Of a stretch of 64,000 nt of DNA, positions 13,801 to 53,315 are shown piece by piece. The stretch's first letter is position 1. Each line of letters starts with the position of its first letter. Source of the DNA: Felis catus (lineage: Eukaryota); NCBI RefSeq assembly GCF_018350175.1, contig NC_058381.1:2480001-2544000 (forward strand), written 5' to 3'. The notes under the pieces were generated by a model, which saw only the letters and a program-made list of their open reading frames with translations, made no database searches and was not told the DNA's origin. The position numbers were made by a program, and so were the translations under genes.

Positions 13801-15432
13801 GCCAAAGACTGAACTTGATAGGATAAGTTAAGACAGATGATAAGAGTAGCCAGAGGCACTGACTATAAAGAAATCTGGGGAGGCATTTCTGGGGAGAAAT
13901 GCACAGGCATTTAGGGTGGGTAACAAAGGCTGCACTGAACTGATCACCTGAAGCTGGGGCAGAAACCTTCCACTACTAGGGCAAACTCGAGACCCTTTCC
14001 ACCTACACGCCTTCACAGGAGAAGAGCTGGAGAAAGTCATTTCCAAGGGCACGAAGGTGGAGCAATCTACTAAGGGAGAGGAGGCACGAAAAGAAGTGAA
14101 AGAAAGGGGGCCCTTCTCCAGACCTGTGATGTTACAAGAAGCTATCTCTGCTGTTGCTCCTCAGGGCAAAATGAAAGAAGGCGGGGAAAAGTCTCTGCGG
14201 CGACTCCAGGCACAAAAGTCCAAAAGAGGCTCAAAATAACAACAGTCACACAAAGAAAAATTCCTGGGCGGCAAAAGGAGTCTCCCTCTGGCTTAATCTA
14301 AATGAGGGGAAGGAGAAAAAAAAAAAAAAAGTCCTAGAAAATGGATTCGGAATAAAGGTGGTAGTAAAAGGAGTTGTAAGGAACCAAACGAGGACCCTTT
14401 ACAACCCCCTTGTCCAAAAGAAGGCGGGTCAGATTCCCAAATTGAGAGAGTCGGCCAAGAAGTCTTCCGGAAGTGGAAACCCTTAAGATCCTTGAGGAAA
14501 ATCCCCACACATTCCCCCCTTCAGAGGTTACAGATGGTGAACACGAAGCCTGCACCCGCCGAGATGCGAAGAACCTACAAGAACGATCTCAAGACATCTG
14601 AGGTCAAAATGAGATGACAAAAAGAACCCCCATCCCCGTAGAACCCGGAGAGCGGCTAGCCTTGGGATAAAGGGGTGGGGTAAGAGACTCGTGAAAAGAT
14701 GCCACCTTACGGCTAGGAGGGAACTTGACCGGCACAACCCAGAGTTGCCGAGGTCAAAGATAGCAAATGTCACAAATGGATTCCGACCGTTTCTCCTTGG
14801 GTTGGGAGCAGAAACGTAACACGAAAGTGGGGTGAGTCTTCCAGGGCCAGGAGGCAGAGGCCTCTGTGAGGAAGATAAAAGGATCTAATATGGGACGGCC
14901 TTCCCAAGGGGGCAATAGGGAAGAAGAAAGAGAATTCTCCATGTGCTTGGACCGTGCGGAAGAGGGGGGTGGGGGGTGGGATGTGATTCAGGTCTAAGGT
15001 AGGTCTCCTACTGGGAAACAAGAAAAGTCAACGAGAAGCGGGGAAAATGGGGTCTCCGTTGCGGGGGGGGGGGGGGGCGCGGACGCTGATCCAAGCACAA
15101 TAATGAACACTGATGTTCATTCTCTCCGAGACCGGGGTCAAGAGCAGGTGTAATTAATAGAGAGACCAAAAATAGGAGGAAGGGGGTGAACTTCCAGAGG
15201 TCTCCCCGGGAGGGCTGCGGGTGGGAGCGTGGGTCTAAGGTTCGAAGGGCCAGGACTTCGCTCCAGAGGCGCGATCCCGCCCCACTCTCCCCCTCCCTGG
15301 CTGGGGGGAGGGCGCCGAAGACCGGTGTCCCCGGCCGGCGCGCCGCCTCACCTTGTAGAAGGCCCCGTTGGAGCCGCGCACCTCGACGGGCAGTCCCGGC
15401 TCCACGTCCCCCCCGGAGGCCAGGCCGCCCAT
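1843..15432 (-). CDS. FXR2: FMR1 autosomal homolog 2 (Agenet/Tudor, KH, RGG RNA-binding protein), 17 coding exons
   Basis: Exons (minus strand, GT-AG): 15352-15432 ([27 protein letters not shown]), 9592-9644, 9155-9248, 8682-8753, 8415-8563, 8087-8180, 7486-7602, ~4910-5080 (mostly in gap; TSKQLAAAF visible), 4634-4712, 4198-4307, 3886-3972, 3353-3575, 2987-3184, 2694-2894, 2502-2597, 2250-2350, 1843-1938 (...LVNGVS*). Phases are consistent and the peptides match mammalian FXR2. Confidence 0.97.
4888..5051. other. Assembly gap hiding most of FXR2 exon 8 (KH1)
   Basis: N run begins 29 nt into exon 8. Confidence 0.97.
6058..6592 (-). mobile_element. Cluster of three CanSINE (SINEC) copies
   Basis: Reverse-complement SINE bodies (gagagagag...gtcggacgcttaacc...ggtgcccc) with poly-T tails. 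Confidence 0.85.
9682..9747. repeat. (GAAAA)n microsatellite just upstream of the FXR2 exon 2 acceptor
   Basis: About 13 copies of gaaaa. Confidence 0.95.
10590..11085. mobile_element. Degraded old L1 fragments
   Basis: L1 ORF2-antisense-like motifs (caccatttgttgaaaagactaccctt) followed by an L1M 3'-end-like segment (tatacctcaataaagctg). Confidence 0.6.
11086..11312 (+). mobile_element. Full-length CanSINE with target-site duplication
   Basis: gggcacccgggtggctcagtcggtt head, (CT)n, A-tail; taaaaattaggggtttcaa on both flanks. Confidence 0.9.
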
Positions 15433-27974: not shown

Positions 27975-30900
27975 ATGGAGAGCAGAGGCCCACTGGCCGC
28001 ATCGCCGGGGCTGCTGCTGCTGCTGCTGCTGCTGCCGCTGCCACCTCACGGCCACCAGGTAAGGGCCCTGAGACAGTCTCTCTACCCAGGTGCAGGATTA
28101 GGACAAGGTGCTCAGCCCGTGTGTGCGTAGAAACGAGCTACCCTTCGGCTCTGCCCTCTTCCTTCCTCTCCTCTTCGTGCGGTAGCCTGTGTCTCTCCTG
28201 CCGTCGTCGCTGGGTCTCTGGCGTGTCTTCCTACCTTGTTTATTTTCTCTCTCTGATAGAGGATCCAGGACCCTCCTGCTGTGCACCTCAGCAGTGGCTC
28301 AGGACAAGAGCCTATCACCATCATGACCTTTGACTTCACCAAGATCAGGAAGTATGAGGTTGACATAGCCCCTTGACCTGGTCCCCTGACCCTACCTTCT
28401 GTGCCTCGGGTCTTCACTTTTCCCTGCTTCCCTCTCCGCCGCTTCACCATCCCTGACCCCGCTTTTGTCCCCACAGGCCATGCCCCACGCACCATCTTTC
28501 CTTCTGTGTCCTTCCAGAACCTCTTCCTCCTTTGAGCTTCGAACCTGGGATCCAGAGGGAGTGATTTTTTATGGCGATACCAACCCCCAGAAGGACTGGT
28601 TTGTGCTGGGGCTTCGAGATGGCAGGCCCGAGATCCAAATGCGCAACCACTTGGCCCAGCTTACGGTGGGCGCCGGGCCCCGGCTGGACGATGGGAAGTG
28701 GCACCAGGTGAGCCAGGCCCGGGCCTGCGCTGGCCTGCGGAAGGGGAACAGAACCGGGTCTCCGGGCAACCCCTTACCACCGTCGTCTTATTTGACCCGC
28801 AACGAAACCGCTATGGAGTTGCGATTCTTGTCTCCCATTTTTTCAGAGGGGAATCTGAGGCTCAGGTCCTGAGCGAGCCCAGGATGCTAGCTGCCTCCAC
28901 AAGTCCGTGTTCTTTCTGCTATACTTGGCTGCCTCTGCAGAAGGCGGTGGAGGCAGGCCCCAGGGGCCTCTGATTCAGCTTTGCTTCGCCCCGTCCGGCA
29001 GGTGGAAGTGAAGGTCCTCGGGGATTCGCTGCTGCTGAGTGTGGATGGGGAGGAGGTGCTGCGCCTGAGACAGGTCTCTGGGCCTCTGGCCGGCAAAGTC
29101 CAGCCTGTCGTGAGGATTGCACTGGGGGGACTGTTGTTCCCTGTCTCCAGTCTCCGTTTGCCGGTAACCGACAGCACAAGGGTGGGAACCCACCCCAGGT
29201 GGTAAAGTGTTGCTGCCCGGGGGACCACGGGGGTCTAAGTCCACACTCTTAAAGGAGAGGGGACAGCATGCTAGCCGCGTGGGAGAGGCCAAAGGCTTGT
29301 GTCTCAGAGGAGAATAAACTGAGCGTGGAGAGGCTGGGACAGGGGTTCACGTGTCTTGATTGCCACATCCCCACATCTTCCCTTCCCTGCACCGGCTCCA
29401 GCTCGTCCCCACCCTGGATGGCTGTCTGCGCCGGGAAAATTGGCTGGACCAACAGGCCCAGACCTCGGTGTCTGCCCTGACCAGCAGCCTCAGAAGCTGC
29501 GCTGCAGAGTCCCAGCCTGGCACATTCTTCCCTCCGGGGACTCGAGCAGAATTCAGTCTCCAAGGTAAAGGCGGTTTTTCCCTCCATGGCCGGCCCTGTG
29601 TCTGCCTTCCCCTGTCTCCTTCCACCACTAGTTTGCCTCCTTCCTTGAGTCCCCAGCCTTGAGTCCTCAGAAAGGGTCACCCATCCCCCCACCCCAGACA
29701 TCCCCCAGCCTCATGCAGAGCCCTGGGCCTTCTCTCTGGACGTGGGACTCCAGCTGGCAGCAGGTTCTGGCCACCTCCTTGCCCTTGGGACCCCAGAAAA
29801 CCCTCCTTGGCTCAGCCTCCAGCTCCAAGATCAAGTAAGAGGGGGTGTTGCCTGTATTCAGTGGAGCCTGGGAGTGGCAGGGGGAAAGGGGGACCCCAAA
29901 CTGTCAATATTAGGAAAGCTTAAGGTGGACGGTAGGGACATATCTTGACACGGACCAGGGGCGCCTGGGTGGCTCTGGCGGTTGAGCGTCCGGCTTCAGC
30001 TCAGGTCATGATCTCACGGTCCGTGAGTTCGAGCCCCGCGTCGGGCTCTGTGCTGACAGCTCGGAGCCCGGAGCCTGCTTCGAATTCTGGGTCTCCCTCT
30101 CTCTCTGCTCCTCCCCTGCTCATGCTCTGTCTCTGTCTCTCTCTGTCTCTCAAAAATAAATATTAAAAAGAAAAGAAAAGAAAAGAAAACTGCCCACAGC
30201 AAGCAAATGGCGTTTATTTATTTATATTTGTTATTTATTTATTTATTTTTATAATTTTATTATTTATTTTGGAAAGAGAGAGCATGTGCATGTGCTAGCA
30301 GGGGAGAGGAGCCAAGAGGGGGAGAGAGAGAATCCTGAGCAGGCTCCATGCTCAGTGAGGAACCCACCGTGGGGCTCGATCCCACGATCCTGGGATCGTG
30401 ACCTGAGCCAAAATCAAGAGTCGGATGCTCAATGGATTCAGCCTCCCCAGGCGCCCCAAGATTTTATTTTTAAGTAATCTCTACACCCAACGTGGGGCTT
30501 GAACTTATAACCCCAAGATCAAGAGTCACATGCTCTACCGAGTGAGCCAGCCAGGTGCCCCTACAAATGGCTTTTATCTGGATCGCATTTACTTGGGATC
30601 GGTGTGGTTTTATGGAACATCAAGCCAGGAAGATTGGGGCAGCACGTAGGGGGCGGAAATGGTTGGCAGACAGAAGGTACCGCTCAGAGGCCCGACTGAG
30701 GCAGCAAGGGGTGTGGGCCACAGGGGTCCAGGCGGTTTGTTCTTTCCTCCCCCGGTCACGTCCCTGTCCCACACACTCCGCAGAAAGTGGTGCTGTCCTC
30801 TGCGTCGGGCCCACAGCTGGATCTGCCTCTGGTCTCGGGACCCCCTCTTCAGCTGAAGCTGGGCGAGTCTGGGGTAGTCTTGAGCCAGAGGCCTAAGAAG

Positions 30901-37652: not shown

Positions 37653-40600
37653 ATGGTCATCCAGAAGGAGACGAAGAGCTGCGGGCAGGTGGTTGAGGAG
37701 TGGAAGGAGTTCGTGTGGAACCCGAGGACGCACCAGTTCATGGGCCGCACCGGGACCAGCTGGGGTACGCAGGGCGGGCCGCGCGCGGGGCGGGGCGGGG
37801 GTCCTCCGGGCGACGCCCCGGGGGGGCACCAGGTCCCGCGGGCTCGGCCCCGGTTCCCTTCCCGGGTCCCCGGCGTCCTGCCCTCCCCCCCCCCGCCCTG
37901 CCTGGCTCCGGCCTGGGAGGGGGCCGAATCGCCGGTCTAATCTCCCCGGCCGGCCGCTGCGGAGGCGGAGAAAGTAGGTCACTGCCGCCTTCCCGCCCCC
38001 CGCGGAGCCCCCTCGCGCGGGGGGTCGCGGGCTCTGCGCGCGTGTCCGCGCCGCGGCGCTGCCGCTCCCTCTCCGGGCAGGTCCGCTGCACACGGCCGCC
38101 CCCCCCTTCCCCAGAAGAGCGCCCCTTCCCTCCCTCTGGCTCTCACTAGCTCGCCAAGCCCGTCTATTTTTAGCTCGTGCCCATCCCCTGGACCCTGGGA
38201 ACATTCATGAGGGGGCGGGTCTTGGAGAGGTGGGGGGGACCGCGGGGGGGGGGGCTCTTCACAGCGGAAGTTGTCAGTATCCCGCTGCTGTTTGGAGCTT
38301 TCTCTGTGGCTGCTTTGTGGGTGGGGGGCTGTTGGAGAGGGGTGGCCCTGGGAGGTTTTGGAGGTTGGATGTTCGGCTCCGATGTCGCAGGCGGAGGGAG
38401 GAGTGGTCACCAGTGGTGAGACGTGCGCATACATCATCCGGCAGAGTGTCCAGACCTTCCCAACCCACAGCGGGACTGCGAGACTCGGGTGTAGAGGGAG
38501 TTGTCCCCAGGCGAGGGTCTGGTGCTGGGCTTGAGTGCAGGTGAAGGGTGGCTTTCTTCCAAAAGGGATTGTTAAGCTTGGGAGGTCAAGCATAGGGGAG
38601 CCTGTTGTGACACAACCTATGATTCCTCCACACCGGTTGAACACTGTCCCCATCAGCCCACCCACCAGGGCAGTCCTCGCCTTCAGGAAACTGGGGAGTC
38701 CAGTCCCTGGGGTGGAAGGGATCCGTGATAGCTCCGGGAAACCTGGAGAAGCTTCATGGGGACAGTGTCGTCTGAGATAGAAGGACGGGGGTTCCTGGGT
38801 GGTGGCAACAACAGACACTTAGGCTGAGGAGTGACGGGGTTACATGTCACATGCAGCAAGGACCTGCTCCCCGCCCGGAAGCCTCCGGGACATTCTACCT
38901 TTGCTCAGCCGCCTCCCCCCGGGTGCTGTGCGTGAACTGGGGGGTGGGGTGACCGCTGAAGGTTCGGGGCGGCTCTGAGAGATTTCATAGCTAGACGGCA
39001 GCTGCGTCCAAGGTGCCACTTCTGTGGGGCGCCTGGAGAGAGAAGAGTTTGCTGTCTGAACGTGAGGGTCCGCGCTCCGAGGGGCGGGGTGAGAGTTTGG
39101 TTGCGAATGGTGGCCAGGGCCAGCTTGGAAACTCATCGCGCCCGACAGCTTTAAGCACGAGGACCCATGAAGCAGTAACAGGTGCTGTGCCTCTGTAGGG
39201 CCGCGAATGGTTGACAAGTTGGGAACGGAATCTGATGCCGAATGACCGCGGCCTGTACTTGGGGTTGGGGCAGCAATGAGAAGTTAGGTCTCTTGCGGCC
39301 TCCACGAGGCTGGGCTTCACTATGGGACCGGAGGGGGCGGGGGGTCATGGCTGGACGCCAGACACCAGGGCCTGCTTCCAGCTCGTCTCATTTTGCTCTC
39401 CAGGGCAGGCTCTCAGATGTCCCCGAGACTCTGTGACCCGTCCGGGTGCAGAACGTCTGAGTGGGAGAGGGGTCTGCGGGGATAGGTGAGGTCATCTTGG
39501 AACCCGCTGACCCTGTTTCCTCCTCCCCAGCCTTTATCCTCCTCTTCTACCTCGTCTTCTATGGCTTCCTCACGGCCATGTTCACCCTCACCATGTGGGT
39601 CATGCTGCAGACGGTCTCTGACCATACCCCCAAGTACCAGGACCGACTGACCACACCGGGTGAGTGATGCGGCTTCTGATGACCCGGTTACCACGTGCGG
39701 GGAAGTCCTTGAAGTCTGCCTCCTTCCCGTTTCCCGCAGCTGAGAGCTTTGTGATCTGGGAAGGTGCTGTGGGGTCACAGGAGATCTCCCCCTGTCCCCA
39801 CCCCGTCCGTCACCCTGCTGCTCCCTGTGTCCGGCTTCCTCCCTCCGTGTGTGGTCCCTCGTCGGATATGCATACGTATACGTATATCCACTTGTCTGGT
39901 ACAGGCTTGATGATTCGCCCCAAGACTGAGAATCTTGATGTCATTGTCAACGTCAGTGACACTGAAAGCTGGGACCAACATGTTCAGAAGCTCAACAAGT
40001 TTTTGGAGCGTGAGTGAGGGGCCGCTGATGTGGCCGTGCAGGGGCTTGGGCAGGCGACCGGGGGACCCTGGAAGCAGAACACTGGCCCCGTGACTCTCTC
40101 TGTCTCTCTCCCCCACCTCCTTAGCTTACAACGATTCCATCCAAGCCCAGAAGAATGACGTCTGCCGCCCTGGGCGCTATTACGAACAGCCAGACAACGG
40201 AGTCCTCAACTACCCGAAGCGTGCCTGCCAGTTCAACCGGACCCAGCTGGGCGACTGCTCTGGCATCGGGGACCCGACCCACTATGGTTACAGCACCGGG
40301 CAGCCCTGTGTCTTCATCAAGATGAACCGGGTACGTGTGACCTTGGTCACCAGGGAGAATGAAGGAGGGGGCTGGGGTCATCATCTGCGGGCAGTTGCTT
40401 TTCACTGGGGCGATCTGGGGAGGTTTGAGCGGCTTCGAGAACCAGAGGCGTGGGGCCGTGGGAGGCCAGGTTCTGTGGAGGGGGGGAGGCTGGACACGTG
40501 TGTCTTCGCCACCTTGTTTCTCTAACTCCTCGTCCTCTCTCTTCATTCCAGGTCATCAACTTCTACGCGGGAGCGAATCAGAGCATGAATGTTACCTGTG

Positions 40601-41754
40601 TGGGGAAGGTGAGTTTGTGGGACCCTGTCCACCTGCCCGTCCTTTTGCCTTTCTTGGCCTGCACGTGATTCACTCGTGTCTTTCTGTCTCCCTTGCTGTC
40701 AGAGGCCCCGTCACTCTAGGGACAAGGGGGTAAGAGGGCGTGCCAGCGTGGCTCCAACTCCCAGGGGCTCCCACCACTCTTGCTTCTCTCTAGATGCTCT
40801 CGCGTGGATAGACACCCACCTCTCTGAGCCCACCCAAGCCCCGGCCTCTGCTTCTGTGCCTGACCCCTTCCACCTTCTCCAGTCCCTGATCACCGTGTCT
40901 TCCGCTCCCCCTCCCGTGTCTCACCTTGCTCTTTAGTTCTTTTTAGGTTTCTGGTAGTTAGGGCCACTCAGTTGTCCTGGGAACCCTGCGGCCCCCTTCT
41001 CTGTCCTCTCTAGAAACTTCCTGTCCCCCTTTACACACGCGCACACACACACCTCCCCTTCCTTCCGAGCCCTTACTCACTTATCTGTTCTCTCTTGGCT
41101 CTGCTTCAGAAACCGATTGCTGAGACCGGGGTAAGAAGGTGGTGTGGGAGGATGAGTGGGCGGCTCCAGGGTCATTAACACCCTTCAGGACTTCCCAGTC
41201 TGACGGAGAGACAGGACAGCCCCTCCTGCGCACATGCACACACAGACTCACAGCCCAAGGGAAGCAGATTGGAGCCAGAAATCACTTGGGGCGAAGGAAG
41301 AGTAGAGGGCAGTCTGGAGAGCTTCTGGGTTCCTGCCGCCCCTAACCCGCTCTCCCCCTACCCTCCTGCTCCCCCACAGCGGGACGAAGATGCTGAGAAC
41401 CTCGGCCACTTTGTCATGTTCCCTGCCAACGGCAGCATCGACCTCATGTACTTCCCTTACTATGGCAAAAAGTTCCACGTAAGTTTCGTGGGAGGCCCGG
41501 CCCTGTGGCTCCCCCCGGGGAGCGGGGTCCTGGGGGAGGAGGCTGGAGTTGCCAAGGGCCTGGACCTGTGCTCTCCTCCTCTGGCCCAGGTGAACTACAC
41601 GCAGCCCCTGGTGGCCGTGAAGTTCCTGAACGTGACCCCCAATGTGGAGGTGAACGTAGAATGCCGGATCAATGCCGCCAACATCGCCACAGACGATGAG
41701 CGGGACAAGTTCGCGGGCCGCGTGGCCTTCAAACTCCGCATCAACAAAACCTGA
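37653..41754 (+). CDS. ATP1B2: Na+/K+-ATPase beta-2 subunit (AMOG), 290 aa, 7 constitutive exons
   Basis: Exons 37653-37764 ([37 protein letters not shown]), 39531-39659 (TM helix), 39905-40009, 40125-40330, 40552-40608, 41380-41478, 41590-41754 (...FKLRINKT*). Total 873 nt. Confidence 0.98.
40703..40729 (+). CDS. ATP1B2: Putative 27-nt alternative microexon of ATP1B2 (RPRHSRDKG)
   Basis: tctttctgtctcccttgctgtcag | exon | GTAAGA; phase 0-0, no stop. Confidence 0.65.
41110..41130 (+). CDS. ATP1B2: Putative 21-nt alternative microexon of ATP1B2 (KPIAETG)
   Basis: tctctcttggctctgcttcag | exon | GTAAGA; phase 0-0, no stop. Confidence 0.65.
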
Positions 41755-49482: not shown

Positions 49483-52809
<3,327 letters not shown>

Positions 52810-53159
52810 TGTGGCCCCTGGGAGGACAGTGCGGCCGCTGTGGAGGGAAGGAGGGTCCGGCATGAGACACACCCAACCCCGGGGTCCCCCGTCTTCCCGG
52901 GAACAGGGCTGCCCCTGCCCCACCCTTTGCCAGCCCCTGGCACATGTCCTCCAGACACAAAGGTACCCAGAGAGGGAATCCCAACCTTCCCACCACTGAA
53001 CCCACGAGCCTTCGTGGAAGGGTACCCTACTTCTGTTCTCTTTCCTGTTAAGAAGGATGAAATGACTGTCAGCCACTCCCTCCACCTGGGGGACGATCCC
53101 TCCATGGACCCCTGACATTCCCCGCCAGATCCCTTCATCACAAAGCCTTCTTTCTTTGT

Positions 53160-53315
53160 TGTTTTTTTTAATGCTTATTTATTTCTGAAGGAGAGAGGGA
53201 CAGAGCGTGAGCAGGGGAGGGGCAGAGAGAGAAGGACACAGAATCCAGAGCAGGCTCCAAGTTCTGAGCTGTCAGCACAGAGCCCGACGCGGGGCTCGAA
53301 CTCACGAACTGTGAG
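53160..53315 (-). mobile_element. CanSINE fragment in TP53 intron 1
   Basis: Reverse SINE 3' half with poly-T. Confidence 0.85.

What the first reader, a model, noticed from the sequence alone, without database searches (positions are those of the whole stretch)
40670..41140. Two in-frame microexons in ATP1B2 intron 5 with neural/retinal microexon architecture
Seen: 40703-40729 (27 nt, RPRHSRDKG) and 41110-41130 (21 nt, KPIAETG). Each has a long pyrimidine tract, a TGC about 8 nt before the exon start, the identical strong donor GGG|GTAAGA, phase 0-0 matching exons 5 and 6, and no stop. Inclusion of both would give ...[30 protein letters not shown]..., a 16-aa basic insert in the ectodomain next to a disulfide Cys and N-glycan sites. 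Established: UGC near the 3' splice site marks SRRM3/4-dependent microexons, and beta-2 is the retinal Na/K-ATPase subunit bound by retinoschisin. I recall photoreceptor-enriched Atp1b2 alternative splicing being reported in other vertebrates, so this may be unannotated here rather than wholly new.
Basis: partly seen in the sequence, partly recalled or inferred. Interest (0 to 1): 0.75.

Follow-up and report, generated by a model that had tools for sequence, protein, structure and literature searches.

The report
Known photoreceptor microexons in ATP1B2
Two tiny extra exons in the sodium-pump beta-2 gene match exons already catalogued as retina-specific (both in mouse, one in human) and already built into public cat-family gene models, so they are real but known; together they would add a 16-residue loop that likely alters how the pump's outer face contacts its surroundings, a role still untested.

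Summary
ATP1B2 intron 5 holds a 27-nt (40703-40729) and a 21-nt (41110-41130) in-frame exon with pyrimidine tracts, TGC at -9/-8 and GGG|GTAAGA donors. They are known. Felid RefSeq models contain them letter for letter. The mouse orthologues (MmuEX7006831, MmuEX7006832) and the human 21-nt exon (HsaEX7009188) are catalogued retina microexons, with rod PSI 95.5 against brain 0.5, and a gene-therapy vector is built on an Atp1b2 exon. Two corrections: the exons are photoreceptor-specific, not neural, and Musashi matters as well as Srrm3. The insert lies in the membrane-distal patch proposed for adhesion, away from the mapped retinoschisin determinant T240. Lizards, a turtle and teleosts carry inserts at the same site with clade-specific sequences. 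I found no functional test or peptide evidence in ten literature searches, and obtained no junction reads from this species. The scan had not noted this on other DNA. Verdict: already known; the insert's function is open.

The parts
37653..41754 (+). ATP1B2 coding span (Na,K-ATPase beta-2/AMOG), 7 constitutive exons, 290 aa
   Evidence: open spliced frame, GT-AG junctions; exon 4 100% identical to named ATP1B2 proteins; PF00287; laminin-G gene upstream, TP53 downstream
40552..40608 (+). Exon 5 (57 nt), ends at K203 in phase 0; holds N193, N197, C200
   Evidence: the mouse flanking exon is also 57 nt
40673..40702 (+). 3' splice site of microexon A: pyrimidine tract, TGC at -9 (likely SRRM3/4 site), CAG
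   Evidence: UGC motif role from PMC9303857 passages
40703..40729 (+). Microexon A, 27 nt, RPRHSRDKG; orthologue of mouse MmuEX7006831
   Evidence: in P0056 and P0082; 94-nt upstream intron in both mouse and window
40934..40961 (+). Cluster of four UAG motifs (40934, 40944, 40955, 40959) downstream of A; likely Musashi-binding enhancer
   Evidence: 7 TAG in the 380-nt intron, 13 of 1000 shuffles reach 7; cluster criterion from PMC4991804 passages; binding not tested
41080..41109 (+). 3' splice site of microexon B: pyrimidine tract, TGC at -8, CAG
41110..41130 (+). Microexon B, 21 nt, KPIAETG; orthologue of mouse MmuEX7006832 and human HsaEX7009188
   Evidence: in P0082; human exon placed after C200-K203
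41380..41478 (+). Exon 6 (99 nt), begins R204 in phase 0; holds patch I region 4 (213-221)
   Evidence: the mouse flanking exon is also 99 nt

Best explanation
These are two in-frame microexons of ATP1B2 whose mouse orthologues are spliced in almost only in photoreceptors, likely under joint control of Srrm3 (upstream UGC) and Musashi (downstream UAG), and which would add a 9- or 16-residue loop predicted to sit on the membrane-distal face of the beta-2 ectodomain, where it likely retunes the subunit's adhesive contacts rather than forming the retinoschisin site. Shown here: the exons, their signals, the reading frame, their presence in felid protein models, and same-site inserts from teleosts to mammals. 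Taken from papers: photoreceptor specificity in mouse and retina specificity in human, Srrm3 dependence in zebrafish and Musashi dependence in mouse. Inferred: the same splicing in this felid's retina, direct binding of both factors here, a flexible loop, and an effect on beta2-beta2 or beta2-matrix contacts of inner segments. My odds by step: real photoreceptor exons 0.97; Srrm3-plus-Musashi control 0.75; adhesion-surface role about 0.45.
For: Identity: (57/94/27 nt and 99-nt geometry shared with mouse). Specificity: rod PSI 95.5, brain 0.5, listed neuron types at most 0.23; retina 73 and 59 against neural 0.04 and 0.02 in mouse, and 50.8 against 0.12 in human. Srrm3: the zebrafish atp1b2b 27-nt exon falls by 26 and 35 PSI points at 60 and 72 hpf while gene expression is unchanged, and by 62 at 5 dpf; zebrafish P0235 has a 9-aa insert at the same site. 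Musashi: Msi1 shRNA abolishes the Atp1b2 exons; the 27-nt exon is at 0.40-0.47 against 0.17-0.24 in the Msi1/2 knockout table (I infer that sample 1 is wild type); UAG cluster. Neither factor alone switches on the human 21-nt exon in cell lines. Position: between patch I regions 198-201 and 213-221, described as the top membrane-distal surface and suggested as the adhesion interface; coil, 40% exposed; my model has coil with pLDDT below 50 at residues 152-166 between a strand and a helix. Beta-2 mediates homophilic aggregation in CHO cells, and modelled interfaces include N197 and N193, M216, A219-D224.
Against: I found no experiment on the insert, no insert peptide and no solved vertebrate beta-2 structure among 20 PDB matches. 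The adhesion interfaces are in-silico only, and the text of the 2025 model never names K203 or R204. Low pLDDT may reflect thin alignment coverage of the insert. Deleting photoreceptor-specific exons in five other genes left ERG responses and histology unchanged. Only 7 of 16 insert positions are invariant among four mammals, against 14 and 15 of 16 in the flanks, and mammal-fish sequence likeness is not significant (356 of 5000 permutations). Msi1 knockdown also makes photoreceptors immature, so part of its effect may be indirect. I have no RNA junction evidence from this species.
Confidence: 0.45

Rival explanations
1. The insert tunes the photoreceptor retinoschisin / alpha3-beta2 / Kv2.1-Kv8.2 complex, raising or lowering retinoschisin affinity on inner segments relative to cells that make the plain form.
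For: Retinoschisin docks on the beta-2 ectodomain, and some combined patch I mutants that include region 213-221 lost binding. The complex sits at inner segments, in the cells that include the exons.
Against: Binding maps to T240/patch II, does not need glycans and occurs with the plain form, judged by residue numbering; the authors put the patch I losses down to structural change. Retinoschisin also colocalises with beta-2 in the inner nuclear layer.
Confidence: 0.2
2. The insert is a tolerated or only weakly useful by-product of the photoreceptor splicing programme, with no measurable effect on pump or cell.
For: Photoreceptor-specific exons in five other genes were dispensable in mice. The insert sequence differs between clades and evolves faster than its flanks in mammals. 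Beta-1 partly replaces beta-2.
Against: The same site carries a frame-keeping insert in mammals, lizards, a turtle and teleosts. In 21 teleost records G5 and W9 are invariant and Y2 and K3 are kept in 20 of 21, which points to selection on the peptide.
Confidence: 0.2
3. The insert changes the pump itself: glycan processing at N193/N197, folding at the C200 disulfide, surface delivery to the inner segment, or apparent K+ affinity.
For: The insert starts three residues after C200 and within ten of two sequons. Mutations in this region altered antibody recognition. That beta subunits influence trafficking and K+ affinity is recalled knowledge.
Against: The site is described as membrane-distal, away from the alpha subunit, and both of my models keep the fold with the insert present.
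Confidence: 0.13
4. In this species the two segments are chance or silent splice-like sequences, or pan-neural exons.
For: No junction reads from this species were examined; the RefSeq X isoforms are computational models.
Against:: exact felid models, orthologous exon lengths and spacing, and near-zero neural inclusion in mouse and human.
Confidence: 0.02

Closest known systems
Mouse Atp1b2 RetMICs MmuEX7006831 (27 nt) and MmuEX7006832 (21 nt), and human HsaEX7009188 (21 nt); Ciampi 2022, PMC9303857 datasets
   Same: Same gene, same intron (between the 57-nt and 99-nt exons), same lengths and order, same 94-nt first sub-intron as mouse, insertion after K203.
   Different: The sub-introns A-B and B-exon 6 are 380 and 249 nt here against 359 and 300 nt in mouse (worked out). 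The human 27-nt exon is not in the human RetMIC sheet, although chimpanzee P0039 carries both inserts.
Felid RefSeq ATP1B2 isoform X2 (P0056; XP_019269116.1, XP_019672659.1 and others) and isoform X4 (P0082; XP_019269118.1, XP_019672660.1 and others)
   Same: P0056 is identical over 299 aa to the window's isoform with A; P0082 carries A+B exactly.
   Different: P0082 is a 253-aa model that starts at M54. A full-length 306-aa felid record was not among the 132 proteins compared; only part of each cluster is listed.
Rod-specific Atp1b2 event of ASCOT (Ling 2020, PMC6952364) and the SLED.RAB vector (Ling 2022, PMC9526712)
   Same: The ASCOT interval chr11:69601924-69602330 runs from the outer end of the 21-nt exon to the outer end of the 27-nt exon; an Atp1b2 exon drives photoreceptor-restricted expression in rods and cones.
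   Different: In the passages I read these papers use the exon as a marker or tool and do not test the protein insert. I did not establish which of the two exons the vector uses.
Teleost atp1b2b 27-nt microexon (zebrafish DreEX0015736)
   Same: Same length as A, same insertion point, eye inclusion dependent on srrm3. Matching the event to the insert of P0235 rests on gene and length.
   Different: Different peptide, with conserved Y, G and W; likeness to mammalian A is not significant. No second module appeared among the 105 fish records parsed.

Membership tests
Retina microexons (RetMICs, Ciampi 2022) | Length of 27 nt or less | tested here: met
   27 and 21 nt; the limit is inferred from the paper calling 28-50 nt exons short RetLONGs
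Retina microexons (RetMICs, Ciampi 2022) | High inclusion in retina, near zero in other and neural tissues | not tested
   Not measured in this species. Published for the orthologues: mouse 73 and 59 against 0.04 or less, human 50.8 against 0.12; rods 95.5
Retina microexons (RetMICs, Ciampi 2022) | UGC close upstream of the 3' splice site | tested here: met
   TGC at -9 and -8. Of the six constitutive acceptors, two have a TGC within 30 nt, at -13 and -21
Retina microexons (RetMICs, Ciampi 2022) | UAG (Musashi) motifs in the downstream intron | tested here: inconclusive
   Met for A (7 TAG, a cluster spaced 10 and 11 nt; 13 of 1000 shuffles reach 7), not for B (1 TAG in 249 nt)
Retina microexons (RetMICs, Ciampi 2022) | Dependence on SRRM3/4 | not testable with these tools
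   Published: the zebrafish exon is down in the srrm3 mutant; the human 21-nt exon moved 0 with SRRM3 and +7.6/+8.1 with SRRM4, below the paper's threshold of 15
Retina microexons (RetMICs, Ciampi 2022) | Orthology to catalogued events | tested here: met
   Flanking exons of 57 and 99 nt, 94-nt intron, same lengths and order as mouse; orthologous peptides
Pan-neural SRRM4 microexons | Inclusion across neurons and brain | not tested
   Not measured in this species; published values for the orthologues say no (brain 0.5, listed neuron types at most 0.23; neural 0.02-0.12), so I do not file it here
Na,K-ATPase beta-2 (ATP1B2/AMOG) | PF00287 beta chain closest to named beta-2 proteins, lying between an SHBG-type gene and TP53 | tested here: met
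   the SHBG-ATP1B2-TP53 order in other mammals is recalled

The most novel reading that the evidence does not exclude
Photoreceptors make their own beta-2 subunit: from teleosts to mammals the same spot on the adhesive top surface carries a photoreceptor-only peptide, and this peptide is a recognition switch that sets which partner (beta-2 on a neighbouring cell, the interphotoreceptor matrix, or retinoschisin) the inner-segment pump binds. The retinoschisin and adhesion work I read would then have been done on the non-photoreceptor form.
Probability: 0.3. Interest if true: 0.62.

Novelty: already known. Interest (0 to 1): 0.27.

Why it matters
As a discovery it adds little: both exons are catalogued, one is used in a vector, and felid models contain them. 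What is left is a gap between two literatures. The splicing papers list the exons without testing the protein. The beta-2 papers I searched for 'splic' (PMC6497308, PMC12191355, PMC12429690) have no occurrence of the word, although about 95% of rod transcripts carry the event in mouse. Alpha3-beta2 anchors retinoschisin and beta-2 loss kills photoreceptors, so a test with and without the insert is cheap and bears on X-linked retinoschisis and on the unknown AMOG partner.

Tried and rejected
One search used exon boundaries off by one base for four exons and gave a broken translation; one search corrected them. One search listed 24 runs, 18 holding the stretch, tissue unknown; none was laid on the locus, so they are no evidence, and junction use in this species remains unshown. 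Peptide evidence: a 7-residue stretch spanning the primate B/exon 6 junction had 0 hits in six supplements of PMC11450717 and 0 in the library; that paper's validated novel peptides are in five other genes. This is weak, because basic inserts give very short tryptic peptides. The first fold (31 rows) was poor, mean pLDDT 55; the second (142 rows) reached 68.5; Foldseek only confirmed the beta-subunit fold. Sequence homology of fish and mammalian 9-aa inserts: not significant, 356 of 5000 permutations. A furin-type RxxR is present in the felid and bat insert but absent in lemming, chimpanzee, lizard, turtle and zebrafish; for three mammals I read this by eye because the scan was anchored on the wrong cysteine; rejected as a conserved mechanism. 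Rows set aside: 3 of 17 inserts are 40-46 aa and look like retained-intron models; 15 of 120 fish records were not parsed. No complex prediction was run, since one job cannot compare forms with and without the insert. Supplements of PMC10987577 and file 5 of PMC9509328 could not be read; 6 of 18 files of PMC9303857 were searched only by event id, not by gene name. Earlier scan notes concerned other genes or were empty.

Full report
Observation. The gene is ATP1B2. Exons 37653-37764, 39531-39659, 39905-40009, 40125-40330, 40552-40608, 41380-41478 and 41590-41754 splice at GT-AG junctions to an open 290-aa frame. Exon 4 is 100% identical to named beta-2 proteins, and a laminin-G gene lies upstream and TP53 downstream. 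In the 771-nt intron 5, segments A (40703-40729) and B (41110-41130) are as described: phase 0-0, stop-free, pyrimidine fraction 0.82, TGC at -9 and -8, donor GGG|GTAAGA. Of 110 possible AG...GT pairs in the intron, only A, B and a frameshifting variant of A passed a tract-plus-donor filter. A stricter scan found only A and B in the whole window on both strands, and 0 of 2000 shuffles gave two hits; its criteria were chosen after the fact.

What it is. Public protein models already contain the exons. P0056 (felid isoform X2, 299 aa) is identical to the window's isoform with A, and P0082 (felid isoform X4) carries A and B exactly; the identity also places the window in a felid. Of 95 fetched proteins with both flanks recognisable, 17 had an insert after K203. 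Three are long and look mis-modelled. The rest include 16-aa inserts in chimpanzee, lemming and a bat, 9 aa in a titi monkey, 10 and 17 aa in Anolis and Pogona, and 16 aa in a softshell turtle. In teleost beta-2 records, 21 of 105 parsed (120 examined) carry a 9-aa insert at the same point, zebrafish included, with G5 and W9 invariant. Its likeness to mammalian A did not beat permutation (356 of 5000), so position and length are shared and sequence homology is unproven.

What is published. Ciampi 2022 (PMC9303857; passages and supplement rows) lists mouse MmuEX7006831 (27 nt, retina PSI 73.3, neural 0.04), mouse MmuEX7006832 (21 nt, 59.1, 0.02) and human HsaEX7009188 (21 nt, 50.8, 0.12) as retina microexons and places the human exon after C200-K203 in a coil. 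Matalkah 2022 (PMC9509328; passages and supplement rows) gives the mouse geometry: a 57-nt exon, a 94-nt intron, the 27-nt exon and a 99-nt exon, the same figures as the window. Ling 2020 (PMC6952364; passages, one section, one supplement row) reports the interval covering both exons at PSI 95.5 in rods and 0.5 in brain. Ling 2022 (PMC9526712; passages and supplement passages) built a photoreceptor-specific AAV vector on an Atp1b2 exon. The exons are therefore photoreceptor-specific, not neural, and they are known.

How splicing likely works. The UGC motifs fit SRRM3/4. The zebrafish 27-nt exon drops in srrm3 mutant eyes by 26 and 35 points at 60 and 72 hpf, before gene expression changes, and by 62 at 5 dpf. 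In cell lines the human 21-nt exon did not respond to SRRM3 or MSI1 and rose only about 8 points with SRRM4. Msi1 knockdown abolishes the exons in mouse retina, with the caveat that it also leaves cells immature. The 27-nt exon is about halved in the table for the adult Msi1/Msi2 knockout (0.40-0.47 against 0.17-0.24; the sample order is my inference). The window has 7 UAG motifs between A and B, four clustered at 40934-40961 with spacings of 10, 11 and 4. This matches the Musashi clusters of Murphy 2016 (PMC4991804; passages). B has only one UAG downstream. I infer joint control by both factors, in line with the model of PMC10987577 (passages), which its authors call untested.

What the insert likely does. 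It follows K203, three residues after C200 (a disulfide cysteine by recalled beta-subunit topology) and near N193 and N197. My better model (142 rows, mean pLDDT 68.5) keeps the fold and shows the insert as low-confidence coil between a strand and a helix; thin coverage could cause the same signal. Net charge is +2 to +3 in four mammals and comes mainly from A; 7 of 16 positions are invariant, against 14 and 15 of 16 in the flanks. Plossl 2019 (PMC6497308; passages and one methods section) puts residues 198-201 and 213-221 in patch I, the top membrane-distal surface, and suggests it as the adhesion interface. It maps retinoschisin binding to T240 in patch II, independent of glycans. Its numbering is that of the form without the insert, so I infer that retinoschisin does not need the insert. 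Beta-2 mediates homophilic aggregation (PMC9322774; passages), and docking models place N197, or N193 and 216-224, in the beta2-beta2 interface (PMC12040271, passages); these are models only. I commit to a change in adhesive contacts as the most likely role (0.45), ahead of tuning the retinoschisin complex (0.2), no measurable role (0.2) and pump or trafficking effects (0.13).

Against my reading. Photoreceptor-specific exons in five other genes were deleted without effect on vision. I found no peptide evidence (PMC11450717, passages and supplement search), no solved vertebrate beta-2 structure, and no functional study of the insert in ten searches of a library limited to open-licence PMC papers and bioRxiv. 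Subscription papers, bioRxiv supplements and unread supplements could hold one. PMC12191355 and PMC12429690 were seen as passages only. No RNA reads of this species were laid on the locus, so inclusion in felid retina rests on RefSeq models and orthology.

Verdict. Observation confirmed; interpretation partly supported; already known. Interest 0.27. What remains open is the function of a conserved photoreceptor-only insert on the outer face of the pump.

Noticed in passing
window 41479-41589 (+): Intron 6 is 111 nt, in frame and stop-free, so exon 6, intron 6 and exon 7 read through as one frame; retention would add 37 residues. Probably chance in a GC-rich intron.
   Followed up: no
window 40701-40704 (+): The acceptor of A is followed at once by a second AG; its use would give a 25-nt frameshifting exon.
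   Followed up: no
window about 28390-28870 (+) and about 50400-53200 (-): Laminin-G domain exon (SHBG-like) upstream and TP53 exons downstream on the opposite strand.
   Followed up: partly
proteins P0049, P0122, P0123, P0128, P0129: Lizard models come in 289, 299 and 306 aa. The single-insert form carries the second (10-aa) module, whereas mammalian single-insert models carry the first. The lizard second module resembles mammalian B by eye only.
   Followed up: partly
window 41110-41130 (+): Felid B differs from chimpanzee, bat and lemming B at the otherwise shared Pro and Asp positions (3 or 4 of 7 identical), while A is 6-8 of 9 identical.
   Followed up: no
proteins P0012, P0132, P0010, P0024: Several public models in bat, horse and seal include exon A or B fused to intron sequence, which looks like mis-annotation of these microexons.
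   Followed up: no
window 14677-14685 (+): The only other copy of the same 9-nt donor motif in the window; it did not pass the microexon scan.
   Followed up: no
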